Shown: positions 1-9,226 of the stretch, piece after piece | How the letters are laid out: every line of letters begins with the position of its first letter | How positions within the stretch are numbered: position 1 is the first letter of the stretch | Origin: Escherichia phage ECML-10 | DNA length: 64,000 bases | Sequence record: OL631479.1 | Direction: 5' to 3' (one strand) | Notes under the pieces: model-generated | What the model was told of the DNA's origin: nothing | Databases searched by the model: none | The model's input: only the letters and a program-made list of their open reading frames with translations | Translations under genes and position numbers: made by a program

Positions 1-78
1 AGCTAAGTCGTTGGCAAAATCTATTGCATCATCCAGTGCACGAAATTCACCTTCATCTTCTAAATAATCCTCATTCAT
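1..78 (-). CDS. hypothetical protein, N-terminal fragment (gene runs off the left edge)
   Basis: Minus-strand ATG at 78 opens an acidic reading frame (MNEDYLEDEGEF...) that continues past position 1; weak RBS. Confidence 0.3.
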   Translation of the reverse strand, partial: MNEDYLEDEGEFRALDDAIDFANDLA

Positions 79-184
79 GGAACGAAAAACGAGCTTAACC
101 TTAAACATAGCATTACCTGTAGACCTCGTAAGTTAAAATTGTAGCACATCATATTGCAGATCTTATCAGGTAACATTATTTTTG

Positions 185-394
185 TCAACAGATTCCGGCC
201 TTATCTCGCCTGTCTGCGTATTCTTTAATCGCAACCTCATCTGCATTAGTGACCAGGTCTTCAAAGTAACTCTCAAGCTCCTCGTCAATGTCAGGAGACC
301 AGCTCTTTTTCCTGTCAGTGTGAATTGCAGACTTGTTGAACTTATTACAGTTCTTTGCTACCGGATTATTCATTAAGCGCTCCTCAGCGTTCAT
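185..394 (-). CDS. hypothetical protein (69 aa)
   Basis: ORF track; start overlaps stop of upstream gene 384..962 by 11 nt; no clear SD. Confidence 0.4.
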   Translation of the reverse strand: MNAEERLMNNPVAKNCNKFNKSAIHTDRKKSWSPDIDEELESYFEDLVTNADEVAIKEYADRRDKAGIC

Positions 395-962
395 AGTAAA
401 TTTTATTTAACATTACCTCATCCTTTGCAGAAAGAATACCGAGATATGCATCACCGAATCTACCTGCAACAACCTCTGCGTGATACATCACTTCGTTAAT
501 ATCGTCAAGAGTGATAACTGGATGACCGTATCTCTCTGAGTATTGTCTCAGAGTGCGATGTAGGGAGTCATCATCATAGGCAGACTTTTTAATATCACAA
601 ACACGACGAATAGCCTTGATGTCGAAAAACCCTGTACGATACCAACCAAGAAAAAGGTTTCGTGCAGTGTCAACATCTACATCAATACCATCAAGAACCT
701 TATCTACAAGATAGCTGTCATCCTTTGGACCTGCTTCCTTAGTGCGAATGTAGTTGCCATCTTTTCCAGGTGACAGCTCCTTCTCATCACCAACCTGAAT
801 GCCATCATTTGGCGGTGTTAACCACTTATCCGGATGCTTACGATCACGAGCGTTAGAATGATTACGCTGGAAACCTGGCTTCCACTTGAAAGTTTTCTCC
901 ATCTGTTCTTCATTCTGATAACGTTTTGCAATCTTTTCACGGTCATCTTTGCGTGAGCTCAT
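384..962 (-). CDS. hypothetical protein (192 aa)
   Basis: ORF track; SD GAGGAGG 6 nt upstream of ATG at 962. Confidence 0.6.
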   Translation of the reverse strand: MSSRKDDREKIAKRYQNEEQMEKTFKWKPGFQRNHSNARDRKHPDKWLTPPNDGIQVGDEKELSPGKDGNYIRTKEAGPKDDSYLVDKVLDGIDVDVDTARNLFLGWYRTGFFDIKAIRRVCDIKKSAYDDDSLHRTLRQYSERYGHPVITLDDINEVMYHAEVVAGRFGDAYLGILSAKDEVMLNKIYYER

Positions 963-1467
963 AGCTGCCTCCTCTTCAAGTTATAGAAAAACTCACTGTA
1001 TCGCTTTGTAACGAGCTTTTCTATCAAACTGGTGCGATTGCATTACTTGGTATGGTTTATACAGCTGTGGAGCGATTTAGGGGCCTCATTATCCGTTTCC
1101 ACACATAAACTTTATCCAAACTCGCGCGGGAGTCTCTCAACCGACTCCTTACGGCGCTGGCAAGCTTTCGTCGGTGGCCCACATTAGTGCTCGGCCTTTG
1201 GCCTGCGCTATCGCTTCGCTCCCACACATGTTAACAGACCTGCATGTATGCACTTCTGTTATTGTGTGCACTATGGAGGCCCGGCATCTCGCCCCCTCGT
1301 AGGCGAGTGCCAATGAAGGGCCGACACTACCTATAGAAAGTAATAAATTTAAAACATGGTACTTAGGATCTAGTATATTCTACATAAGTTAAGTATATGT
1401 ACTTAGTACCATAAGTACTAGATCTTTTATTTTTTATTATTTAGTTATTTTAGTTATATTCTTTATG

Positions 1468-1548
1468 TGTCCGTATCACGGACAGTTAGTGTCCGTATTA
1501 CGGGCAGATGTGTCCGCGTGACGGACAGTAGTGTCCGTATCACGGACA
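1468..1548. promoter_or_regulatory. array of four 17-bp palindromic operator-like sites (TGTCCGTATCACGGACA and variants)
   Basis: Copies at 1468-1484, 1490-1506, 1511-1527, 1532-1548; centre-to-centre 21-22 bp. Confidence 0.6.
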
Positions 1549-1623
1549 GTTACTAGCCTCTGTTCCAGGGCGAACATAAAACATACGAATCCTTATAGTA
1601 CAGATATTTAAGTTTTTACTGGT

Positions 1624-1974
1624 CTAACCAGTTGTTGACATCCGAATAACTTCTTCTGGTGGCAAAACTTTGGAAAATGTGCATCTTTTACCTCTCCCTT
1701 GTGTGGATATTTCAACCACTCCCGCACATTCTAAAGTTTTAACGCACGCTGCTGCTTTTGTTTTCTTTATCCCAACATCTGCTGCAATTTTCCTTGTGCT
1801 GGGTGTGAAGCGTGAATTTCCTCCAAGCTTATACCAGTTGTGCAGGTAGCAGTATACAATCTTGTCATACAAGTCAAGAACAACAACCTCTCCAGTTGTG
1901 TCATTCAAAACTTTTGACATAGACAGTATTTCAAGGGGGACTTTAAGATATAGCAGCTTATCCCCATCTTTCAT
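1624..1974 (-). CDS. putative DNA-binding protein (possible HTH)
   Basis: ORF track; SD AGGAGA before ATG at 1974; C-terminal RKIAADVGIKKTKAAACVKTLECAGVV resembles a helix-turn-helix; adjacent to palindrome array. Confidence 0.5.
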   Translation of the reverse strand: MKDGDKLLYLKVPLEILSMSKVLNDTTGEVVVLDLYDKIVYCYLHNWYKLGGNSRFTPSTRKIAADVGIKKTKAAACVKTLECAGVVEISTQGRGKRCTFSKVLPPEEVIRMSTTG

Positions 1975-2021
1975 ATCTCCTGATTCTCCTTGTGTGGCAA
2001 TTTTCTTTAAAATAGCAGGGA

Positions 2022-2576
2022 TTACTCCCCGCTGTCAATAGCAAGACTCATTGCAATACGGTATGCCTCTTCTAATGGTAAGAGTCTCCCCCACACATCC
2101 CAACCGACATCAAGCTGCCTGCCAAACAACTGTTGTGTGGTTCCGTGAGCATGACCGAACAGTTGGACTGATCCATGAGGCTTTCTGTTCCACTTTGCAA
2201 ACTGGTAATGGCTCATACAGATCAAATTCTTGTTGTGGCGAAGCTCGTAATAATCTACAACCTCGTGATAGAACTCTTTCATAATTCTGACAGTCGTCCT
2301 TGTGTCATGGTTGCCACGAACAAGAATAATATGTCCGTTCAACATATTTAGAATATCCGGGAGTAAGTTGTTGATATTCTTATCATTAGTGCACGCAATA
2401 TCTCCCAAGTGGAACACAGTGTCTGCAGGTGACACAACAGAGTTCCACTCGGCGATGATTCCTGCATTCATACTGTCAAGATTGTGATCATACTGAGATC
2501 TGTGTTTTTGACATGAATCAAACTCCATGACCCGCTGGTGGAGAAAGTGTGTGTCGCTTGTTACAAAGTATTTCAT
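2022..2576 (-). CDS. calcineurin-like metallophosphoesterase (protein/polynucleotide phosphatase)
   Basis: Start moved to internal ATG (MKYFVTSDTHF); motifs DxH, GDIACTNDKN, GNHD, GHAH typical of the family. Confidence 0.75.
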   Translation of the reverse strand: MKYFVTSDTHFLHQRVMEFDSCQKHRSQYDHNLDSMNAGIIAEWNSVVSPADTVFHLGDIACTNDKNINNLLPDILNMLNGHIILVRGNHDTRTTVRIMKEFYHEVVDYYELRHNKNLICMSHYQFAKWNRKPHGSVQLFGHAHGTTQQLFGRQLDVGWDVWGRLLPLEEAYRIAMSLAIDSGE

Positions 2577-2583
2577 ACATTCC

Positions 2584-2994
2584 TCATTTAAGTTTAATGC
2601 AGTTTTTAAGCTGGCGTTCCATACGATCCACAACCCTGTCTGGAACATCATGAATGCTTTTATTACCGTGGCGGTTTTCAACCACGATCACGGTATAACT
2701 ATACCCATGACTGATTGCCATGTCAATATATTCTTGCACATGTTTTTCTTTTGTAAACGTATTACTTACCACGATACGGTCGTATCCCATACGCATCATA
2801 TCTTCTACGTTATCTTTGCACCATTTTGCTGCAAGTGTTACTTTACTTGCATCCCAGTTGTAATTTCCGTCATCGTCGTACCAGAACATGTCGTTCTCAA
2901 AATGTGGATACAGACCTTCTAAAGATAGAGCATTTGCCAGTGTTGATTTGCCAGACCCTGGTATACCACGCACGATATATAGCATTTTAGACAT
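2584..2994 (-). CDS. polynucleotide kinase-like P-loop kinase (T4 Pnkp kinase-domain homolog)
   Basis: Start moved to ATG 2994 (SD GGGGGA); P-loop GIPGSGKST, RIVVSNT and HDVPDRVV align with T4 Pnkp N-terminal kinase domain. Confidence 0.65.
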   Translation of the reverse strand: MSKMLYIVRGIPGSGKSTLANALSLEGLYPHFENDMFWYDDDGNYNWDASKVTLAAKWCKDNVEDMMRMGYDRIVVSNTFTKEKHVQEYIDMAISHGYSYTVIVVENRHGNKSIHDVPDRVVDRMERQLKNCIKLK

Positions 2995-3112
2995 AGCAAT
3001 CCCCCGTTTTAATTTTAATGATAGTATACCTAACTGTTTTGTTAATTTCAAGTGTTGACACTAGGTTGTTTGTGTGGCAGGATAGACTGACAAAATGACA
3101 AATGAGGAACGT

Positions 3113-4030
3113 ATGATGAAGTATTTTAATGCAGACGATCTAGTTGACAAAGGTCTTGTAACCAGTCGATATTATCCAGATCTTGGATTAAAGATCTATA
3201 AATATGCCAGAAAAGTATTCTACAACAATCTGTGGCATTTGTCCCCTCGTTTGCTGGAGTGCCGAGGCATTGTTGTCGGTAATGAAGGAAATGTTGTGGC
3301 ATGGCCCTTCACAAAAGTGTTTAACTTGGGAGAAAATCACACCAACCTGCCTGACAATAAGCTTGTGACGGCGGTAGAGAAAAAGAACGGATTCCTCGGC
3401 GTGGTGTCATCTCATAAAGGTGAACTATTGTTCTCAACAACCGGATCTCTTGATTCCCCATATTGTAACCTCGCAAAGGAAACCATCCGGGAGCAATGTG
3501 GTAATTTAGATCTTATCAAGAAGGTTATGGGCAATGAAAACATGACATTCATGTTTGAAATTTGTCACCCTTCAGATCCGCATATTGTTCAGGAAGATCA
3601 TGGCGCATATTTGATAGGTTGCAGATATAATGATTCTGGAATAATGCTGCCAGAAGCAGCTTTAGATGGGATTGCCAAATACCTTGGCGCAAAACGTCCT
3701 CACACTGTGCGTGAAATTCCGTTCAGCTATGCAAAAGAATTGGCTGCAGAAACAAGAGGTGAAGGGTATATGATTCGTAAGCCTTACTACCCTTATGATC
3801 TGCAGCTGAAGATCAAGTCTCCATACTATCTGGCACGGAAGGCCGTAATGAGGGGTAAAGCTTGGAAGATTTGGGATGATGATATCTTTAAACGTGTTGA
3901 CGAAGAGTTTTACGGCATGGTAAACTTCATTCGTAGCAATTACACAGAAGATGTGTGGAACTGCCTACTGGAGCAGGAACGCAGGGAGATACTCGACCAC
4001 TATTTCCACAACGAGGACTATATGCAATGA
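3113..4030 (+). CDS. RNA ligase, Rnl1 (T4 RnlA) type
   Basis: ECRGI, FNLGEN, KxNG (EKKNGFLG) lysine motif, EGYMIRK and LKIK match T4 Rnl1 motifs; start set to ATG 3113 (SD GAGGAA). Confidence 0.8.
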   Translation: MMKYFNADDLVDKGLVTSRYYPDLGLKIYKYARKVFYNNLWHLSPRLLECRGIVVGNEGNVVAWPFTKVFNLGENHTNLPDNKLVTAVEKKNGFLGVVSSHKGELLFSTTGSLDSPYCNLAKETIREQCGNLDLIKKVMGNENMTFMFEICHPSDPHIVQEDHGAYLIGCRYNDSGIMLPEAALDGIAKYLGAKRPHTVREIPFSYAKELAAETRGEGYMIRKPYYPYDLQLKIKSPYYLARKAVMRGKAWKIWDDDIFKRVDEEFYGMVNFIRSNYTEDVWNCLLEQERREILDHYFHNEDYMQ

Positions 4031-4377
4031 AGAAGTTGATTGTGTGGCTGGATGATTTGAGAGATCCGTCAAATTATGGACTCCCAGACGCTGTTTGGCT
4101 GAAGAATTCCTCCGAGTTTATGGATTTTATTAACGATAAGGGAAAGCTCTACAGACGCGTTTCTGAGTGGCATATGGACAACGACTTAGGAGAAGTATTC
4201 GAAGGATATGATTGCCTATCCATGTTGGAGGAAAAATTTGTATTCGGTAAGCCTCCAGTGGTTGACAACGTGAAGATTTTCGTACATACTTCTAATCCAT
4301 CAGCGGCTCGTAAATTCATGCTTGCAGCTGACTCGTTTAAAAAGTTTGGAATAGAGATTAAACAAAACATCTACTGA
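4027..4377 (+). CDS. hypothetical protein (117 aa)
   Basis: ATGA start/stop overlap with RNA ligase; WLDDLRDP, HMDNDLG and HTSNP conserved-looking motifs, family not recognised. Confidence 0.55.
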   Translation: MKKLIVWLDDLRDPSNYGLPDAVWLKNSSEFMDFINDKGKLYRRVSEWHMDNDLGEVFEGYDCLSMLEEKFVFGKPPVVDNVKIFVHTSNPSAARKFMLAADSFKKFGIEIKQNIY

Positions 4378-4385
4378 GGACACTT

Positions 4386-5147
4386 ATGCGACGACTGATT
4401 ATTATCTCCGGTGCTGGTTTGAGCGCTGAATCTGGTATTCCCACTTTCCGATCTGGTAGCACTGCAATGTGGGAGAATTTCAGCATCGATGAGGTGTGCA
4501 ACATCCACACCTTTGCCAAGAACTACTATAAGGTGCATGACTTTTACAATGCACGTCGTGTAGCTCTGGGCAGTGTTGATCCTAACCTTGCACATCTTCG
4601 GATCGCTGAGTGGTATTCCCGCTGGTCTGGTCGTGTGATCAACCTTACCACCAATGTAGATGATTTGCTGGAGCGTGCTGGTGTAAAACATGAAGATATT
4701 TTACATGTCCACGGGTATTTGCCTGAAATCACCTACGAAGATGCTGAAGGTAATGATGTAATTAAAAATATCGGATACACGGAGGTAGATACAGGTAAGT
4801 ATACCTGGGTTAAGCCCAATGTAGTGTTCTTCGGTGAGGTTGCTCCTAAGTATACAGACATGTATGACCTGTTGACATCTCTCACAAGCAATGATATGGT
4901 GATCCTGGTAGGTTGTTCTAACACAGTTATTAATTTTAACTGGGAATTGTTTCCTGCTACTTGTAAAGGCACAAAACTGCTGATTGTAAACAAGTATGAT
5001 TCGCAGAGTGCAGATGGAAGTGGCATTTCACGTAGCGACCTTTATCAATATGAGGATCGCGGGATCCCTGTATGGTTTAACGGTGCTGTTGACGCTTTCT
5101 CTGATAAAGTATTTATTGAAACTGTAGAAAACTTTATGGAACTTTAA
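4386..5147 (+). CDS. SIR2-family NAD-dependent deacylase/ADP-ribosyltransferase
   Basis: Sirtuin signature GAGLSAESGIPTFRSG near N-terminus and HVHG catalytic His motif. Confidence 0.75.
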   Translation: MRRLIIISGAGLSAESGIPTFRSGSTAMWENFSIDEVCNIHTFAKNYYKVHDFYNARRVALGSVDPNLAHLRIAEWYSRWSGRVINLTTNVDDLLERAGVKHEDILHVHGYLPEITYEDAEGNDVIKNIGYTEVDTGKYTWVKPNVVFFGEVAPKYTDMYDLLTSLTSNDMVILVGCSNTVINFNWELFPATCKGTKLLIVNKYDSQSADGSGISRSDLYQYEDRGIPVWFNGAVDAFSDKVFIETVENFMEL

Positions 5148-5160
5148 AAGGAGACCTTTA

Positions 5161-5874
5161 ATGCTGAATACTAAACTGATCGACAACCTGGAAAAACTGT
5201 CTCAGCCTGAAAACTACCTTTGGTCTGCCAACTGGGTGGAAAACTGGAACCGTGTGGCAGCTAAGGTGAAAAAATCATACACACCATTCGAATTACAGCT
5301 TAGCTTCATTGAGGAAGAGTTCAATGAAGTTTTGGAAGAGCTGGAGAAAGGTGATGGTGGAGATCACTTGCTAAAAGAGGCCTGCGATCTTCATGTTGTC
5401 ACAAGTTATGCCGCTTATCTTGTTAATGACAATCACGAAAAGTGGTCAAACCTGTTTGATAATCCACGAGGTATTAAGTTCAAGATTGGTGAGTTCTATG
5501 ATACACTGATCGCTGCGAAAAACACCTCTAAGCAAAGAGCGTCTGCTTACCGCTTAGCAGAGTTGTCAACAGCTTTGCTGTTCCAGCTTCGCGGTGATGT
5601 GTGCGGGATGATGCGTAAGGTTCTCAAATCGAATGACAGCAAGTTTGCACGGGTCAACCATCTACGGTATTCACACGGTGCCAGTGCAGATATGCCTGCT
5701 GAACAACTCATCGAGTTGGAGATTAAAGATCTTGAGCGACGCTTTGATGGTCGATATGAAGGTTTTGTTGCCAAGGAAGAATTCTACAACGGTAATAAAG
5801 TTATCATATTCCTTGACAGTAAAGGTAAGATCATGAAGCCTTCAAGCTTCAAGGATGTAACAGAGTATATTTAA
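5161..5874 (+). CDS. hypothetical protein; possible MazG-like NTP pyrophosphohydrolase N-domain
   Basis: ORF track; SD AAGGAG; EEEFNEVLEELEKGDGGD resembles the MazG/HisE EExxE..D motif (tentative). Confidence 0.5.
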   Translation: MLNTKLIDNLEKLSQPENYLWSANWVENWNRVAAKVKKSYTPFELQLSFIEEEFNEVLEELEKGDGGDHLLKEACDLHVVTSYAAYLVNDNHEKWSNLFDNPRGIKFKIGEFYDTLIAAKNTSKQRASAYRLAELSTALLFQLRGDVCGMMRKVLKSNDSKFARVNHLRYSHGASADMPAEQLIELEIKDLERRFDGRYEGFVAKEEFYNGNKVIIFLDSKGKIMKPSSFKDVTEYI

Positions 5875-5880
5875 CAACAT

Positions 5881-5906
5881 AGCCGGGTGATCCCGGCTTT
5901 ACTTGT
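5881..5906 (+). terminator. rho-independent terminator
   Basis: Hairpin AGCCGGG-TGAT-CCCGGCT followed by TTACTTGTTG, just after stop at 5874. Confidence 0.5.
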
Positions 5907-5916
5907 TGTGGAAAGT

Positions 5917-6246
5917 ATGCAAGTGAGGCAGATAGTTATGTACAAGCACTCTAGAGATCTTGAAAACGATGCTGTGTTTGGGGATCAGATGAAAGAGTTG
6001 GTTAAACTCATAGACAGGATAGAGGATAAGTTTGACACTAAGATCTACATCGACAGCAAAGTATTCAACCACAAAATATGGACAAATCTGTGTGTTGGGC
6101 TACATGGTGATAAAGATATTGTAAATTTGGTTGTAATAAAGTTCATAGTGTGGCAGAATAAGACTATACGTTATTCCGATCCACACTTACTTGTTTATCC
6201 TATAAAAGACCTACTACAGAAGGAGGACTGCAATGCCGTTATTTAA
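5917..6246 (+). CDS. hypothetical protein
   Basis: Track ORF 5887..6246 begins inside the terminator hairpin; start moved to ATG 5917. Confidence 0.45.
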   Translation: MQVRQIVMYKHSRDLENDAVFGDQMKELVKLIDRIEDKFDTKIYIDSKVFNHKIWTNLCVGLHGDKDIVNLVVIKFIVWQNKTIRYSDPHLLVYPIKDLLQKEDCNAVI

Positions 6247-6502
6247 TCTTGCTAAACCTGTAGAAGCCCACCAGTTTGACGGAAGCTCTTCATCAGTATC
6301 TGATCTGCAACGGTGGATTGATACAGGTGTGTTTACATCGTCACCTGTTCGGACCAGAGATCTTCGTCGCATGTGTGAGCTTGTCGAGCCTTTTGGTAAC
6401 CTTGTCTTGTACCAGGGAGATTGGCTAGTTGACTTTATGGGAGACTGGTTGGTAATGAGTAAAGAAGAGATGTTTAAAATTTTTAAGGAAGAGGCCGAGT
6501 AA
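6233..6502 (+). CDS. hypothetical protein (89 aa)
   Basis: ORF track; SD AAGGAGGA before ATG 6233. Confidence 0.5.
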   Translation: MPLFNLAKPVEAHQFDGSSSSVSDLQRWIDTGVFTSSPVRTRDLRRMCELVEPFGNLVLYQGDWLVDFMGDWLVMSKEEMFKIFKEEAE

Positions 6503-7785
6503 TGCATCAAATCAAAACAACACTGTACGCACTGAACAAAGATGGCAGCTACCAACAGTGGAAAGTATTCACTGATGGCGAAAAGGTTATCGTAGAGTTT
6601 GGCAAGCTTGACGGTAAATTGCAGTACAAAGAGACGGTATGCACACCTAAGAACGTAGGTCGTGCCAATGAGACTACAGCTGAGCAACAGGCCGAGCTTG
6701 AGGCTATCAGCAAGTGGGAAAAACAAGTCCGTCTGGGGTATGTTGAAAACATGGAAGATTGCGAGCAGGGTGTTGATCTTTTACCCATGCTGGTGCATGA
6801 CTACCTGAAGCGTGGCAAGGCACTTAAATTACCTTGCTGGATCTTGCGTAAGTTAGATGGCCTTCGTCTGCTTGTTGTTTTCCAAAATGGTGAGCCTAAA
6901 TTTATTTCCCGTGGTAATAAGTCCTATCCTATTCAAGGAAAGCTTTTAGAGCAACTTCGTTCTTTCCATTCTACCACTGGGATTAAACAACTTGATGGGG
7001 AACTATACATTCATGGTCTTCCTTTGCAGAAAATAGTGTCTCTTGCTAAACGGTGGCGCACACAGGAAGAGATTCAGGCCGAGATCGATAAAGACTATGA
7101 GGCAGATAAAAAACGCCGTCATGCCGCAATTAAGGCAGGCTTATCAACATACAAAAACTTCAACAAGGTAGATATTCCTGTCGATGTTGAGCCTGTTCGT
7201 GATGATTTGCGTTACGGTGGGTACTGTAGCTACGATCTTGAGTATCACATTTTTGATATTCCTAGCGACAAGGTGTGGTGGGATCCAGAAACAGAGTCTG
7301 GACGCTGCAAGGATCTTATGGATGCAGAGGATACCGTTACCACTCTGATGCTTGACCATATCAAGGTTGTTGACGCAGAGCTTGCGTACACAGTTGATCA
7401 TTGCGAAGAATCTGTTGGTATATTCATGTCCGAAGGATATGAAGGTACCATTATGCGTAACTTCTGTGGTAAATATGAGTATGGTCAGCGAACATCTGAA
7501 GCATTGAAATGGAAAAAGTTCAACGACGCAGAGGTGAAAGTTATTGACGTTGAGAAAGATAAGAATGATGAAGGTGTTCTTATCTGTGTTGACAAGGAAG
7601 GTGTTGTTGTTAAAATGAAGATGAAAGGCACGCACGAGGAGCGTAGCTATGACAGGATGCAGAAAATGATCGGCAAGTTTGTCACCTTCAAATATCAAGC
7701 AAGGACAGAAGACAACAACTACCAATTCCCTGTCGGTATCTGCGTCCGAAATGTTAACCCAGACACTTGGGAGGTTCTGGAATGA
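6502..7785 (+). CDS. ATP-dependent DNA ligase
   Basis: Motif I KLDGLR, motif IV EGTIMRN, motif V KWKKF, and C-terminal GKFVTFKY...FPVGICVR like Chlorella-virus/T7 ligases. Confidence 0.8.
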   Translation: MHQIKTTLYALNKDGSYQQWKVFTDGEKVIVEFGKLDGKLQYKETVCTPKNVGRANETTAEQQAELEAISKWEKQVRLGYVENMEDCEQGVDLLPMLVHDYLKRGKALKLPCWILRKLDGLRLLVVFQNGEPKFISRGNKSYPIQGKLLEQLRSFHSTTGIKQLDGELYIHGLPLQKIVSLAKRWRTQEEIQAEIDKDYEADKKRRHAAIKAGLSTYKNFNKVDIPVDVEPVRDDLRYGGYCSYDLEYHIFDIPSDKVWWDPETESGRCKDLMDAEDTVTTLMLDHIKVVDAELAYTVDHCEESVGIFMSEGYEGTIMRNFCGKYEYGQRTSEALKWKKFNDAEVKVIDVEKDKNDEGVLICVDKEGVVVKMKMKGTHEERSYDRMQKMIGKFVTFKYQARTEDNNYQFPVGICVRNVNPDTWEVLE

Positions 7786-7912
7786 TGTAGGATGGTTTAG
7801 TAGATAACGGTAGCCAATTGAATGATGGTTTTTCAATTGGCACCTACATAACCACACTATGCAGTGTTGTTGTTGATCGGGTTAGTTATGAGTAAACTGG
7901 AGAGTATGAAAA

Positions 7913-8410
7913 ATGAAACTTGATAAAAATGTTCAACGAAAAGCTTTCTTGGATCTTATTGGCTGGGCAGAGGGAACAACAACCCACCCTGCCACCAAAT
8001 GTGGAGGATACGATGTTGTAGCATACGGGATGGACGGAAAACCTGAAATCTTTACAGATTTTTCTACGCACCCTTTTGCAAACGGTCGCCCTGGTAAAGT
8101 GTTTAACTCAAAAGGGCAAAGAACTACAGCCTGCGGTAAATATCAATTTCTTGTCAAATACTGGGAACACTACAAAAAACAGCTTAAGTTGCCGGATTTT
8201 GGACCAGATAGCCAGGATAAGTGGGCAATCCAGTTGATCAGGGAACGTAAAGCACTTGAAGACATAGATAACGGTCATATTAAATCTGCTATACGTAAGA
8301 CCTCAAATATTTGGGCTTCGTTCCCATACAACCAGTACGACCAAAATCCAAAAACCATTGACAAGTTGCTTAAGAAATTTGTAGAGTTTGGAGGTGTTGT
8401 TCTGGATTAA
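7913..8410 (+). CDS. endolysin, lambda R-type lytic transglycosylase
   Basis: KAFLDLIGWAEGT, GYDV, FTDFSTHP, YQFL, SNIWASFP align closely with lambda R lysozyme. Confidence 0.9.
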   Translation: MKLDKNVQRKAFLDLIGWAEGTTTHPATKCGGYDVVAYGMDGKPEIFTDFSTHPFANGRPGKVFNSKGQRTTACGKYQFLVKYWEHYKKQLKLPDFGPDSQDKWAIQLIRERKALEDIDNGHIKSAIRKTSNIWASFPYNQYDQNPKTIDKLLKKFVEFGGVVLD

Positions 8411-8418
8411 TGATCAAA

Positions 8419-8446
8419 AGGTAGGCCACTCGCCTACCTTTCTACA
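8419..8446 (+). terminator. possible terminator hairpin
   Basis: AGGTAGGC-CACTC-GCCTACCT followed by TTCTAC (weak U tract). Confidence 0.35.
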
Positions 8447-8464
8447 CCAGAGGTGTGTTGAGAT

Positions 8465-9226
8465 ATGAAGATACATTTCTTTTTTAATGATCACTATCCT
8501 TATTGGTACAAGGATGGTGATCTAATCTTTTGGAAACCTGGCTACAGTAGGAATGGAAATAGGGCTGGACACTACAACAAAAAGACTGGATATTTCCAAG
8601 TGTACAATAAGCTGACAAATGTTAAACGTGGCAGACATAGGGAAATTTTTGACATGTTTTACGGATGTGTCACAGATACTTGGCATATCGATCATATCGT
8701 CTCTAAGAAAAATTCTACTAACGGAGTGCCTGTAGACAAGATAGAAAACCTTCAAATGTTGAAGCCTTGGGATAACTACTGTAAGAGAGCCTTGGAAAAT
8801 GTGCAAAGCAATAACACCTCTACAGTGACTGGTGTGGTATGGCTGAAAAGAGAGGGTAAGTGGAGGGCAAGTAGAAGGATAAATAGGGTAAATGTTAGGT
8901 TGGGAGATTTTGACACTTTCGAAGAGGCTAAGTCTAGGGTTGAATGGTCAATAGCCAACCCGGAAGAGGCTTTAAAGATAGTTCCAAACCCGCACAAGAA
9001 TAATATCCTGCCAGGTATTGATTGGTCTAAGAAAGATACCTGTTGGAGGGCACGAGATAACAAAGGAAGAAACTTAAGATGCTTCAACGACAGGAAGTGG
9101 CTAAATCCGTGGTGGGAGGCAGTTTGTGCAAGAAAGTCTTGGGAAGTAAACTGTCTCTACGGAGGGATGTCACTAACTGAGTGGAAGTTATCCAGAGGCT
9201 ATCCAAGACCTTGTGTTGAGGATTGA
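8465..9226 (+). CDS. HNH homing endonuclease with AP2-like DNA-binding domain
   Basis: HIDHIVSKKNSTNG...NLQML HNH motif; GVVWLKREGKWRASRRINRVNVRLGDFDTFEEA AP2-like. Confidence 0.75.
   Translation: MKIHFFFNDHYPYWYKDGDLIFWKPGYSRNGNRAGHYNKKTGYFQVYNKLTNVKRGRHREIFDMFYGCVTDTWHIDHIVSKKNSTNGVPVDKIENLQMLKPWDNYCKRALENVQSNNTSTVTGVVWLKREGKWRASRRINRVNVRLGDFDTFEEAKSRVEWSIANPEEALKIVPNPHKNNILPGIDWSKKDTCWRARDNKGRNLRCFNDRKWLNPWWEAVCARKSWEVNCLYGGMSLTEWKLSRGYPRPCVED

What the first reader, a model, noticed from the sequence alone, without database searches (positions are those of the whole stretch)
2022..4377. Divergent RNA-repair cassette: Rnl1-type RNA ligase, PNK-like kinase and calcineurin-type phosphoesterase as separate genes
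The minus-strand pair encodes a P-loop kinase matching the T4 Pnkp kinase domain (2584-2994) and a calcineurin-like metallophosphoesterase (2022-2576). The divergent plus-strand gene (3113-4030) carries T4 Rnl1 motifs (ECRGI, FNLGEN, KxNG, EGYMIRK, LKIK). In T4 the healing activities are fused in Pnkp with a HAD-type phosphatase; here kinase and phosphatase are split and the phosphatase is of the metallophosphoesterase type, as in bacterial Pnkp. The cassette probably counters host anticodon nucleases. The adjacent 117-aa ORF (4027-4377) with WLDDLRDP/HMDNDLG/HTSNP motifs is uncharacterised and may be an additional end-processing component.
Basis: partly seen in the sequence, partly recalled or inferred. 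Interest (0 to 1): 0.7.

Follow-up and report, generated by a model that had tools for sequence, protein, structure and literature searches.

The report
Known rV5-type phage RNA-repair gene cassette
This stretch of an rV5-like E. coli phage carries a set of genes (RNA ligase, RNA 5'-kinase, phosphoesterase and helpers) that most likely mends RNAs such as tRNAs cut by bacterial defence nucleases. The same gene set in the same phage group was already described computationally in 2022, so it is real but not new.

Summary
All four ORFs and every quoted motif are present at the stated coordinates.

- **Origin:** the window is a Vequintavirus, 98.9% identical in DNA to phage JES2013. Its six cassette proteins are 87-100% identical to rV5 gp076-gp081.
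- **Ligase:** the 304-aa ligase groups with T4 Rnl1 and fungal Trl1 by sequence profile and by predicted fold, not with DNA ligases.
- **Kinase:** the 136-aa P-loop protein aligns over the whole T4 Pnkp kinase domain, including the catalytic Asp35. Its best solved relatives are RNA-repair kinases.
- **Phosphoesterase:** the 184-aa protein keeps all metal-binding motifs. It belongs to the Aquifex aq_1665/YfcE clade, not the bacterial Pnkp/lambda-phosphatase clade.
- **The "uncharacterised" ORF:** it is a cREC domain protein (Pfam PF20274), a receiver-fold protein already predicted to open cyclic phosphates.
the plus-strand gene run continues with a zinc-less sirtuin and a MazG-like gene, up to a terminator-like hairpin.

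Ligase, kinase and phosphoesterase co-occur, and are often adjacent, in hundreds of phages. cREC and the sirtuin are accessory. Iyer et al. 2022 (Viruses 14:1977) described this neighbourhood with phage V5 as prototype. No experimental test was found. Verdict: real, correctly read, already known.

The parts
2022..2576 (-). Stand-alone binuclear metallophosphoesterase, 184 aa (rV5 gp076 orthologue, 97% identical). Proposed 3'-end healing enzyme acting on 2',3'-cyclic phosphate or 3'-phosphate.
   Evidence: Pfam Metallophos and Metallophos_2; phrog_547 E 1.9e-51. Motifs DxH, GD, GNHD, H and GHxH are invariant in the 7-sequence alignment A4. Nearest solved relative is Aquifex aq_1665, 1xm7, E 5e-17.
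2584..2994 (-). Stand-alone PNK-like P-loop kinase, 136 aa (rV5 gp077 orthologue, 98% identical). Proposed RNA 5'-OH kinase.
   Evidence: Pfam AAA_33; phrog_2071, and phrog_505 'polynucleotide kinase' E 6.8e-10. hhalign against T4 Pnkp residues 1-144 gives probability 95.9%, with D35 aligned to D35. The family profile's best PDB hits are RNA-repair kinases: 9d8a, Pnkp1 4xrp, T4 PNK 1ltq, CthPnkp kinase 4gp7.
2698..2726 (-). Sigma-70-like promoter inside the kinase gene, reading towards the phosphoesterase gene.
   Evidence: TTGACA-17-TATAGT, 11 of 12 matches. Corresponds to the promoter annotated 'P80' in the rV5 record. This is a consensus match only.
2995..3115 (.). Divergent intergenic region between the kinase and ligase genes. 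It holds a minus-strand promoter-like site (3051-3023) and the ligase ribosome-binding site (GAGGA 3104-3108).
   Evidence: The local GC-skew sign changes here.
3116..4030 (+). Compact Rnl1/Trl1-type ATP-dependent RNA ligase, 304 aa (alternative starts 3113 and 3095; rV5 gp078 orthologue, 98% identical).
   Evidence: Pfam PF09511 E 6.9e-15. Among solved structures, the family profile hits only T4 Rnl1 by sequence, E 4e-13. hhalign probability 97.8%. AlphaFold2 model pLDDT 91.5. Foldseek top hits are T4 Rnl1 and fungal Trl1 ligase domains.
4027..4377 (+). cREC (cyclic-phosphate processing receiver) domain protein, 116 aa (rV5 gp079 orthologue, 87% identical). Predicted, but never tested, cyclic phosphodiesterase.
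4386..5147 (+). Sirtuin (Sir2 family), 253 aa (rV5 gp080 orthologue, 99% identical). Catalytic HG is kept and the zinc-ribbon cysteines are absent.
   Evidence: Pfam SIR2 E 7e-28; phrog_2162 E 1.6e-108. Nearest solved relatives are E. coli CobB 1s5p and SIRT5, and the CobB cysteine positions are not cysteines here. Part of the neighbourhood described by Iyer et al. 2022.
5161..5874 (+). MazG-like nucleotide pyrophosphohydrolase, 237 aa (rV5 gp081 orthologue, 100% identical).
   Evidence: phrog_671 E 5.4e-22. No Pfam, NCBIfam or PDB sequence hit. Named as MazG-superfamily in Iyer et al. 2022.
5881..5898 (+). GC-rich hairpin followed by a T-rich tail. Candidate terminator closing the ligase-cREC-Sir2-MazG gene run.
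   Evidence: 7-bp stem with 6 GC pairs, tail TTACTTGTTG. Pattern match only; the number of such sites in the region is not above the shuffle expectation.

Best explanation
The region is the rV5-type phage RNA break-repair module, arranged as two divergent gene runs.

Proposed mechanism. Host ribonucleases that act as defences or toxins (anticodon nucleases and similar metal-independent RNases) cut tRNA or other RNA. This leaves a 2',3'-cyclic phosphate on one fragment and a 5'-OH on the other.
1. The stand-alone PNK-like kinase (2584-2994) phosphorylates the 5'-OH.
2. The metallophosphoesterase (2022-2576) opens and removes the 3'-terminal phosphate, possibly helped by the cREC protein (4027-4377) opening the cyclic phosphate.
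3. The compact Rnl1/Trl1-type ligase (3116-4030) adenylates itself on Lys89 of the KKNG motif and seals the 3'-OH and 5'-phosphate ends.

The sirtuin and MazG-like genes that follow the ligase and cREC are accessory. They may deal with a 2'-phosphate and its NAD-derived by-products.

Shown here: gene presence, family membership, conservation of catalytic residues, predicted folds, and co-occurrence and adjacency across phages.

Inferred: all enzymatic activities, the RNA substrate, and the counter-defence role.
For: Ligase:
- Pfam PF09511.
- Among solved structures the family profile hits only T4 Rnl1 by sequence, E 4e-13. hhalign gives probability 97.8%.
- The T4 essential residues R54, K75, F77, K99, G102, E159, E227, G228, K240 and K242 all align to identical residues.
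- A high-confidence model has T4 Rnl1 and fungal Trl1 ligase domains as nearest folds. DNA ligases score many orders of magnitude worse.

Kinase:
- hhalign covers the full T4 Pnkp kinase domain, with the P-loop and Asp35 aligned.
- The best PDB profile hits are RNA-repair kinases.
- phrog_8238 is a 737-position profile. Its N-terminal part matches this kinase and its C-terminal part matches this ligase, which suggests a fused relative.

Phosphoesterase: all metal-ligand motifs are invariant.

cREC: Pfam assignment, receiver fold, and conserved acidic pocket.

Linkage across phages:
- tBLASTn counts for ligase/kinase/phosphoesterase track each other by host genus. Escherichia 198/197/208, Pseudomonas 177/173/181, Klebsiella 36/36/39, Acinetobacter 24/24/26.
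- The genes are adjacent although reordered in Phapecoctavirus, Justusliebigvirus, a Klebsiella phage and Vibrio phages.
- The same holds on unrelated metagenomic contigs: phosphoesterase-ligase-kinase in L008, and kinase-phosphoesterase in L009 and L010.
- In a Novosibvirus the cREC gene lies inside a tRNA gene array.
- rV5 and JES2013 carry a tRNA cluster about 3 kb beyond the phosphoesterase gene.

Literature: Iyer et al. 2022 reached the same functional prediction for this neighbourhood, naming phage V5. The T4 Pnkp/Rnl1 precedent for tRNA repair is summarised in PMC10946426.
Against: - No biochemical or genetic test of any of these six proteins was found.
- The kinase lacks the T4 Arg38 equivalent (Trp38). 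The lid arginine aligns with T4 R122 rather than R126. Iyer et al. call it only a 'nucleotide kinase', so it could phosphorylate a small molecule.
- The phosphoesterase clade (aq_1665/YfcE) has no member among the hits here with known RNA-end activity. Its homologues are far more widespread than the ligase, 1361 against 760 records.
- The ligase differs from T4 Rnl1 at two essential positions (D101 to N, K119 to T). It also lacks the T4 C-terminal tRNA-specificity domain.
- The sirtuin lies about 30 kb from the cassette in Stephanstirmvirinae. It also occurs in T5-like phages, a group absent from the ligase hits listed. Its membership in the pathway is therefore weakly supported.
Confidence: 0.7

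Rival explanations
1. Yeast-type, NAD-dependent route (the emphasis of Iyer et al. 2022).
1. cREC opens the 2',3'-cyclic phosphate to a 3'-OH,2'-phosphate end.
2. The kinase phosphorylates the 5'-OH.
3. The KxNG ligase seals and leaves a junction 2'-phosphate.
4. The sirtuin acts like Tpt1/KptA and transfers that phosphate to NAD-derived ADP-ribose.
5. MazG, cREC and the phosphoesterase clear the ADP-ribose cyclic phosphate by-product.

On this reading the phosphoesterase is peripheral.
For: - The proposal is published for this neighbourhood.
- Ligase, cREC, Sir2 and MazG are tightly packed on one strand and end at a terminator-like hairpin.
- Ligase motif I is KxNG, as in Trl1, rather than KEDG as in T4.
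- Fungal Trl1 ligase domains tie with T4 Rnl1 as best structural matches.
- The sirtuin is atypical, lacking the zinc-ribbon cysteines.
Against: - Ligase, kinase and phosphoesterase travel together in many phages that lack a nearby sirtuin or cREC. Examples are L008, and the Pseudomonas and Vibrio phages. cREC occurs in 356 records against 760 for the ligase.
- The sirtuin is about 30 kb away from the cassette in ZCKP1 and phAPEC8.
- No sirtuin is known to act on RNA 2'-phosphate, and cREC has never been assayed.
Confidence: 0.15
2. Mixed neighbourhood. Only the ligase, kinase and phosphoesterase repair RNA. cREC, the sirtuin and MazG instead consume or degrade NAD-derived or nucleotide immune signals, or modify proteins, as a separate counter-defence that merely sits in the same early-gene block.
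For: - Sirtuin homologues occur in 1010 phage records. Many are T5-like phages, a group absent from the ligase hits listed.
- Relatives place NAD-salvage-type genes (annotated Nampt and ribose-phosphate pyrophosphokinase) next to the cassette.
- Iyer et al. list cREC among domains predicted to process ADP-ribose derivatives, often fused to Nudix.
Against: - cREC overlaps the ligase stop codon here (ATGA), which suggests translational coupling.
- cREC stays within the repair cluster in four genera despite gene reordering.
- cREC sits in a tRNA array in a Novosibvirus.
Confidence: 0.1
3. DNA-end processing. The kinase and phosphoesterase clean 5'-OH and 3'-phosphate DNA ends for the ATP-dependent DNA ligase encoded 2.5 kb downstream (6502-7785).
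For: - T4 Pnkp also acts on DNA (established knowledge).
- A DNA ligase gene lies within a few kb of the cassette here and in relatives.
- The phosphoesterase has a weak match to the ligase-associated PdeM family, E 7e-4, far below the cut-off.
Against: - In most arrangements the kinase and phosphoesterase directly flank the Rnl1-type RNA ligase, not the DNA ligase.
- The best kinase matches among solved structures are RNA-repair kinases.
- In L010 the kinase-phosphoesterase pair has an Rnl2-type RNA ligase about 4 kb away.
Confidence: 0.04
4. The ligase homologue is mainly a tail-fibre attachment factor, as its GenBank label suggests ('RNA ligase and tail fiber protein attachment catalyst', copied from T4 gp63). 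On this reading the neighbouring genes are unrelated.
For: Only the transferred annotation in many records.
Against: - The label is inherited from T4.
- All catalytic ligase residues are conserved under selection across a family with more than 1600 clusters.
- The T4 C-terminal domain is absent.
- The gene sits among early and nucleic-acid-metabolism genes and is linked to end-healing enzymes.
Confidence: 0.01

Closest known systems
Sirtuin-linked RNA-repair gene neighbourhood 'type 2' of Iyer, Burroughs, Anantharaman and Aravind 2022 (Viruses 14:1977, section 3.7.3), prototyped by Escherichia phage V5 and Proteus phage Mydo
   Same: It has the same components: T4-like tRNA ligase, cREC, nucleotide kinase, sirtuin, MazG-family pyrophosphatase and calcineurin-like phosphoesterase. 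The window's six proteins are 87-100% identical to rV5 gp076-gp081 and lie in the same order and orientation.
   Different: Nothing structural differs; this is the same system in a sister phage. My comparative counts shift the emphasis. Ligase, kinase and phosphoesterase form the widely conserved core, and the sirtuin and cREC are the variable parts. The paper instead centres on the sirtuin and calls the phosphoesterase occasional.
Bacteriophage T4 tRNA repair pathway (Pnkp plus Rnl1), which counters the PrrC anticodon nuclease
   Same: The same three chemical steps are expected: 5'-kinase, 3'-end healing and ATP-dependent sealing. The ligase is a true sequence and fold relative of Rnl1, and the kinase aligns with the Pnkp kinase domain.
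   Different: - The healing activities are on separate polypeptides.
- The phosphatase is a metallophosphoesterase, not the HAD/DxDxT domain of Pnkp.
- The ligase is 70 residues shorter, lacks the T4 C-terminal tRNA-specificity domain, and has KxNG instead of KEDG, with T in place of K119.
- It is far below the NCBIfam T4 RnlA equivalog cut-off, 38.8 against 242 bits.
- cREC, sirtuin and MazG-like genes are present in addition.
Bacterial Pnkp/Hen1 and Pnkp1-Rnl-Hen1 RNA repair systems (Clostridium thermocellum, Capnocytophaga gingivalis)
   Same: Both combine a PNK-like kinase with a binuclear metallophosphoesterase for end healing. The kinase profile hits Pnkp1 (4xrp, E 9e-6) and the CthPnkp kinase domain (4gp7, E 3e-4).
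   Different: - There the kinase, phosphoesterase and ligase domains are fused or form a stable complex with the Hen1 methyltransferase. No Hen1 homologue was seen here.
- The phosphoesterase here is of the aq_1665/YfcE clade. It did not retrieve CthPnkp or lambda phosphatase at E <= 1.
- The ligase is Rnl1-type.
Fungal and plant tRNA ligase Trl1 plus the 2'-phosphotransferase Tpt1
   Same: Both have the KxNG motif I. Trl1 ligase domains tie with T4 Rnl1 as best structural matches. A stand-alone Mucorales kinase (9d8a) is the best solved match of the kinase profile. The cREC and sirtuin could play the roles of the cyclic phosphodiesterase and Tpt1.
   Different: There is no 2H-type phosphodiesterase and no Tpt1/KptA homologue. 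The proposed analogues are unrelated folds with untested activities. There was no sequence-level hit to Trl1. Dependence on a 2'-phosphate is unknown.

Membership tests
Rnl1-type ATP-dependent RNA ligase (Pfam PF09511; T4 RnlA) | Match to the family model above the curated threshold | tested here: met
   PF09511 scores 55.9 bits against a 28.3 cut-off, E 6.9e-15. The family profile hits T4 Rnl1 2c5u/9do4 at E 4e-13, and no other ligase at E <= 1.
Rnl1-type ATP-dependent RNA ligase (Pfam PF09511; T4 RnlA) | Covalent nucleotidyltransferase motifs, with the motif I lysine and the T4-essential residues R54, K75, F77, G102, E159, E227, G228, K240 and K242 | tested here: met
   Identical residues align in HMMER and hhalign: R50 (in the ECRGI motif), K67, F69, K89, G92, E148, E216, G217, K232 and K234. 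All are invariant in the 36-sequence family alignment.
Rnl1-type ATP-dependent RNA ligase (Pfam PF09511; T4 RnlA) | T4 Rnl1 essential residues Asp101 and Lys119 | tested here: not met
   D101 aligns with the invariant N91 (KxNG, the Trl1 form of motif I). K119 aligns with the invariant T109.
Rnl1-type ATP-dependent RNA ligase (Pfam PF09511; T4 RnlA) | Equivalog of T4 RnlA, including its C-terminal tRNA-specificity domain | tested here: not met
   NCBIfam TIGR02308 scores 38.8 bits against a cut-off of 242. Alignments stop at T4 residue 248-249. The protein ends about 65 residues after motif V with a distinct helical segment.
Rnl1-type ATP-dependent RNA ligase (Pfam PF09511; T4 RnlA) | Fold closest to RNA ligases of the Rnl1/Trl1 group rather than to DNA ligases | tested here: met
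   Foldseek against PDB: T4 Rnl1 and Trl1 ligase domains score E about 1e-12, Rnl3 1e-11 to 1e-8, Rnl5 and Rnl2 1e-6 to 1e-4, and DNA ligases 4e-5 to 1e-2.
Rnl1-type ATP-dependent RNA ligase (Pfam PF09511; T4 RnlA) | ATP-dependent sealing of RNA 3'-OH/5'-phosphate ends | not testable with these tools
   Requires a biochemical assay.
PNK-type polynucleotide 5'-kinase (T4 Pnkp kinase domain clade) | P-loop GxxGxGK(S/T), plus the general-base Asp equivalent to T4 Asp35 | tested here: met
   GIPGSGKST is at residues 10-18. D35 aligns with T4 D35 and is invariant in the family.
PNK-type polynucleotide 5'-kinase (T4 Pnkp kinase domain clade) | Arg38 and lid Arg126 of T4 Pnkp | tested here: inconclusive
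   T4 R38 aligns with W38, an aromatic position in the family. The nearly invariant R108 aligns with T4 R122, and K112 with R126. The alignment in this segment may be off by a few residues.
PNK-type polynucleotide 5'-kinase (T4 Pnkp kinase domain clade) | Profile-level similarity to characterised polynucleotide kinases | tested here: met
   hhalign against T4 Pnkp residues 1-144: probability 95.9%, E 5e-9. PDB profile hits: 9d8a 3e-6, Pnkp1 9e-6, T4 PNK 1.4e-4, CthPnkp kinase 3e-4. phrog_505 'polynucleotide kinase' E 6.8e-10.
PNK-type polynucleotide 5'-kinase (T4 Pnkp kinase domain clade) | Fusion to a 3'-phosphatase domain, as in T4 Pnkp | tested here: not met
   The protein is 136 aa and consists of the kinase domain only.
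Calcineurin-like binuclear metallophosphoesterase superfamily | Metal-ligand motifs DxH, GD, GNH(D/E), H and GHxH | tested here: met
   D8-x-H10, G58-D59, G88-N89-H90-D91, H123 and G141-H142-x-H144. All are invariant in alignment A4 except D91, which is Ala in one of the seven sequences. Pfam PF00149 is above threshold.
Bacterial Pnkp / lambda-phosphatase clade of metallophosphoesterases | Specific relationship to the CthPnkp or lambda phosphatase domains | tested here: not met
   Neither was retrieved from the PDB at E <= 1, by single sequence or by profile. The best hits are aq_1665 (5e-17), YfcE and GpdQ. Motif II is GDIAC, without the DRG continuation (sequence; the GDxxDRG form of the lambda-phosphatase clade is from my own knowledge).
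cREC (Pfam PF20274, cyclic-phosphate processing receiver domain) | Model match above threshold, receiver fold, and a conserved acidic pocket | tested here: met
cREC (Pfam PF20274, cyclic-phosphate processing receiver domain) | Cyclic phosphodiesterase activity | not testable with these tools
   Only two computational papers mention the domain, and both call it experimentally uncharacterised.
Iyer et al. 2022 sirtuin-centred RNA-repair neighbourhood, type 2 | Sirtuin linked to a T4-like ligase, cREC, nucleotide kinase and MazG, with or without a calcineurin-like phosphoesterase | tested here: met
   All six genes lie within 2022-5874. They are orthologous to the named prototype, phage V5.

The most novel reading that the evidence does not exclude
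The cassette may run a yeast-style, 2'-phosphate-dependent heal-and-seal pathway built from non-homologous parts.
- cREC would act as the cyclic phosphodiesterase.
- The KxNG Rnl1/Trl1-like ligase would require a 2'-phosphate.
- The zinc-less sirtuin would act as a functional analogue of Tpt1/KptA and remove the junction 2'-phosphate with NAD+.

This would give sirtuins and receiver-fold proteins new catalytic roles in RNA repair. The idea was already proposed in outline by Iyer et al. 2022, so the novelty would lie in demonstrating it.
Probability: 0.15. Interest if true: 0.7.

Novelty: already known. Interest (0 to 1): 0.25.

Why it matters
The finding adds no new kind of system. The genes have been annotated in rV5-like phages since the rV5 genome record, and the neighbourhood was interpreted as an RNA-repair system in 2022.

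Its remaining value is practical. rV5-like phages infect E. coli K-12 and O157, so they are a tractable place to test three open points:
1. Does a split kinase, metallophosphoesterase and compact Rnl1-like ligase set really repair nuclease-cut tRNA during infection?
2. What does the never-assayed cREC domain do?
3. Does a phage sirtuin act on RNA 2'-phosphates?

The comparative counts here suggest that the ligase-kinase-phosphoesterase triad is a common heal-and-seal module. It occurs in hundreds of Escherichia, Klebsiella, Pseudomonas, Acinetobacter and Vibrio phages. That is relevant to how therapeutic phages escape tRNA-targeting defences.

Tried and rejected
- **Single-sequence PDB searches.** The ligase and kinase gave only chance-level hits. 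Family profiles were needed.
- **Direct BLASTP of the kinase against T4 Pnkp.** It aligned only the P-loop, E 0.002, and was superseded by hhalign.
- **cREC profile against PDB sequences.** Only chance acyl-carrier-protein hits appeared. The fold search settled the question.
- **MazG-like protein.** No Pfam, NCBIfam or PDB sequence hit. Its assignment rests on PHROG and on the literature.
- **tRNA scan of the window.** None found. The phage tRNA cluster lies just upstream of the window in relatives.
- **Rfam scan of 1-9000.** One sub-threshold hit only, probably chance.
- **Literature searches for experimental work** on Vequintavirus RNA repair, cREC or phage sirtuins found none. The NARP3 paper that turned up is unrelated to these genes.
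- **Burroughs and Aravind 2016 (NAR 44:8525)** could not be read because it is not held.
- **A canonical sigma-70 promoter for the ligase gene run** was not found in the intergenic region. TTGACA at 3054-3059 has no good -10 partner.
- **Rejected readings:** DNA-ligase-like grouping of the ligase, and the 'tail attachment' annotation as a primary function.

Full report
**What is there**

The window is a Vequintavirus, that is, an rV5-like E. coli myophage. Bases 1500-5200 match 119 phage records, and 118 of them at 90-99% identity. The best match is JES2013 at 98.9%.
- a 184-aa protein at 2022-2576(-);
- a 136-aa protein at 2584-2994(-);
- a 304-311-aa protein at 3095/3113/3116-4030(+);
- a 116-aa protein at 4027-4377(+), whose start overlaps the previous stop codon.

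A GAGGA Shine-Dalgarno at 3104-3108 and the N-termini of homologues favour 3116 as the ligase start. RefSeq uses that start for JES2013.

**The ligase**

- It passes Pfam PF09511 (RNA_lig_T4_1), E 6.9e-15.
- A single-sequence search of the PDB found nothing.
- A profile of 36 family members hit only T4 Rnl1 among all solved structures, E 4e-13.
- hhalign against T4 rnlA, fetched from the T4 genome, gave probability 97.8%.
- In those alignments the T4-essential residues R54, K75, F77, K99, G102, E159, E227, G228, K240 and K242 are matched by identical residues. All are invariant in the family.
- Two positions differ. D101 is Asn, giving KxNG, which is the Trl1 form of motif I. K119 is Thr.
- The alignment ends at T4 residue about 248. 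The phage protein has only a short helical tail where T4 Rnl1 has its C-terminal domain. It falls far below the NCBIfam T4 RnlA equivalog cut-off.
- An AlphaFold2 model with pLDDT 91.5 finds T4 Rnl1 and fungal Trl1 ligase domains as best folds, E about 1e-12. Rnl3, Rnl5 and Rnl2 follow, and DNA ligases score much worse.

I file the protein as a compact member of the Rnl1/Trl1 group. It is not an equivalog of T4 RnlA.

**The kinase**

- It matches Pfam AAA_33 and the PHROG 'polynucleotide kinase' family.
- BLASTP against T4 Pnkp aligned only the P-loop.
- A 30-sequence profile aligned over the entire T4 kinase domain, probability 95.9%. The P-loop and the general-base Asp35 are matched.
- The profile's best solved matches are RNA-repair kinases: a Mucorales stand-alone kinase, Pnkp1, T4 PNK and the CthPnkp kinase domain.
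- T4 Arg38 is replaced by an aromatic residue. The lid arginine aligns with R122 rather than R126. PNK membership is therefore likely but not complete.
- One PHROG profile of 737 positions matches this kinase at its N-terminus and this ligase at its C-terminus. This hints at fused relatives.

**The phosphoesterase**

All binuclear metallophosphoesterase motifs are invariant across relatives. Its nearest solved relative is the uncharacterised Aquifex aq_1665, followed by YfcE. CthPnkp and lambda phosphatase were not retrieved.

**The fourth ORF**

**Extent of the cassette**

Downstream, with gaps of 8 and 13 nt, lie two more genes.
- A sirtuin at 4386-5147, closest to CobB and SIRT5. It keeps the catalytic HG but lacks the zinc-ribbon cysteines.
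- A MazG-like gene at 5161-5874.

A GC-rich hairpin with a T-rich tail follows at 5881-5898. On the other strand, a strong promoter-like site inside the kinase gene (2698-2726) corresponds to the promoter 'P80' annotated in rV5.

**Comparative evidence**

The six proteins are 87-100% identical to rV5 gp076-gp081 and lie in the same arrangement. In other genera the genes are reordered but stay together.

| Source | Arrangement |
|---|---|
| Phapecoctavirus and Justusliebigvirus | cREC, one or two small genes, phosphoesterase, ligase, kinase, all on one strand |
| A Klebsiella phage | phosphoesterase, two small genes, ligase, cREC, kinase, one small gene, Sir2 |
| Metagenomic contig L008 | phosphoesterase, ligase, kinase |
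| Metagenomic contigs L009 and L010 | kinase, phosphoesterase; L010 has an Rnl2-type ligase about 4 kb away |

Across 50,697 phage records the ligase, kinase and phosphoesterase counts track each other by host genus.

| Host genus | Ligase | Kinase | Phosphoesterase |
|---|---|---|---|
| Escherichia | 198 | 197 | 208 |
| Pseudomonas | 177 | 173 | 181 |
| Klebsiella | 36 | 36 | 39 |
| Acinetobacter | 24 | 24 | 26 |

Ligase and kinase are adjacent in Vibrio and Salmonella phages that appear in both lists. cREC is found in fewer records, 356. The sirtuin is found in more, 1010. It is often unlinked, lying about 30 kb away in ZCKP1 and phAPEC8. It is also present in T5-like phages, a group absent from the ligase hits listed. 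A cREC homologue sits inside a tRNA gene array in a Novosibvirus. rV5 and JES2013 have a tRNA cluster about 3 kb beyond the phosphoesterase gene, just outside this window.

**Most likely mechanism**

This is a heal-and-seal RNA repair module.
1. The kinase phosphorylates 5'-OH ends.
2. The metallophosphoesterase, perhaps with cREC, converts 2',3'-cyclic phosphate ends to 3'-OH.
3. The ligase seals the break.

This restores tRNAs or other RNAs cut by host defence or toxin RNases, as in the T4 Pnkp/Rnl1 precedent. My confidence is about 0.7.

The main rival is the yeast-type, NAD-dependent route proposed by Iyer et al. In it cREC leaves a 2'-phosphate and the sirtuin removes it after ligation. 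The KxNG motif and the Trl1-like fold are compatible with it. The weaker linkage of the sirtuin and cREC to the core triad argues that this route is at most an accessory branch. Minor rivals are a separate NAD or nucleotide-signal counter-defence role for cREC, Sir2 and MazG, DNA-end repair, and tail-fibre attachment. All enzymatic activities are inferred, and no experiment was found.

**Novelty**

[quoted passage not shown] The window carries that system in a sister phage. The finding is therefore real and well read by the first stage, but already known. The only open ground is experimental.

Noticed in passing
window 1467-1552: Four tandem 21/22-nt repeats, each containing the palindrome TGTCCGT-ATC-ACGGACA. 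They lie in an ORF-poor, AT-rich gap (963-1623) just 3' of the HTH_36/DUF6945 gene at 1624-1974(-), annotated as a replication initiation protein. They look like iterons or operator sites, so this may be a candidate origin or regulatory region.
   Followed up: partly
window 1244-1541 (-): Sub-threshold Rfam match to the Listeria sRNA rli43, 26 bits against a gathering score of 100, E 0.004. It overlaps the repeat array and is probably chance.
   Followed up: no
window 4386-5147: The phage sirtuin keeps the GAGxSxxSGIPxFR and HG catalytic motifs. It has no cysteines where E. coli CobB has its zinc-ribbon cysteines, so it is a zinc-less sirtuin variant.
   Followed up: partly
window 33900-56800: About 23 kb contains only small ORFs, all under 150 aa and roughly 60 of them. 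They lie on the plus strand up to about 42 kb and on the minus strand after it. The GC skew changes sign at about 42 kb. This is a convergent block of small, presumably early, genes.
   Followed up: no
window 8465-9226 (+): A 253-aa ORF with a weak AP2-domain hit sits after the endolysin gene. rV5 and JES2013 carry a 207-nt ORF and a 465-nt HNH endonuclease gene at that position. It is probably a different homing endonuclease insertion.
   Followed up: no
L003 258-2956 (phage muut) and L005 1-1121 (Klebsiella phage Iguana_ER37): In related phages, genes annotated as nicotinamide phosphoribosyltransferase and ribose-phosphate pyrophosphokinase lie immediately beside the repair cassette. From my own knowledge this pair resembles the NARP1 NAD-reconstitution system. 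No such genes are present in window 1-9000.
   Followed up: no
L004 4926-5273 (Proteus phage 1, Novosibvirus): A cREC homologue, 35% identical, is embedded in an array of about 17 tRNA genes in a T5-like phage. This is independent contextual support for a tRNA-related role.
   Followed up: no
window 6502-7785 (+): An ATP-dependent DNA ligase, phrog_114 E 2.9e-83. Pfam matches only the last third of its adenylation domain plus the OB domain, so the N-terminal part is divergent.
   Followed up: no
L007 4715-4889 (rV5 record): The rV5 record annotates its tRNA-Arg as 175 nt long and overlapping a promoter feature. JES2013 annotates a 75-nt tRNA-Arg. This is probably an annotation artefact and lies outside the window.
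   Followed up: no
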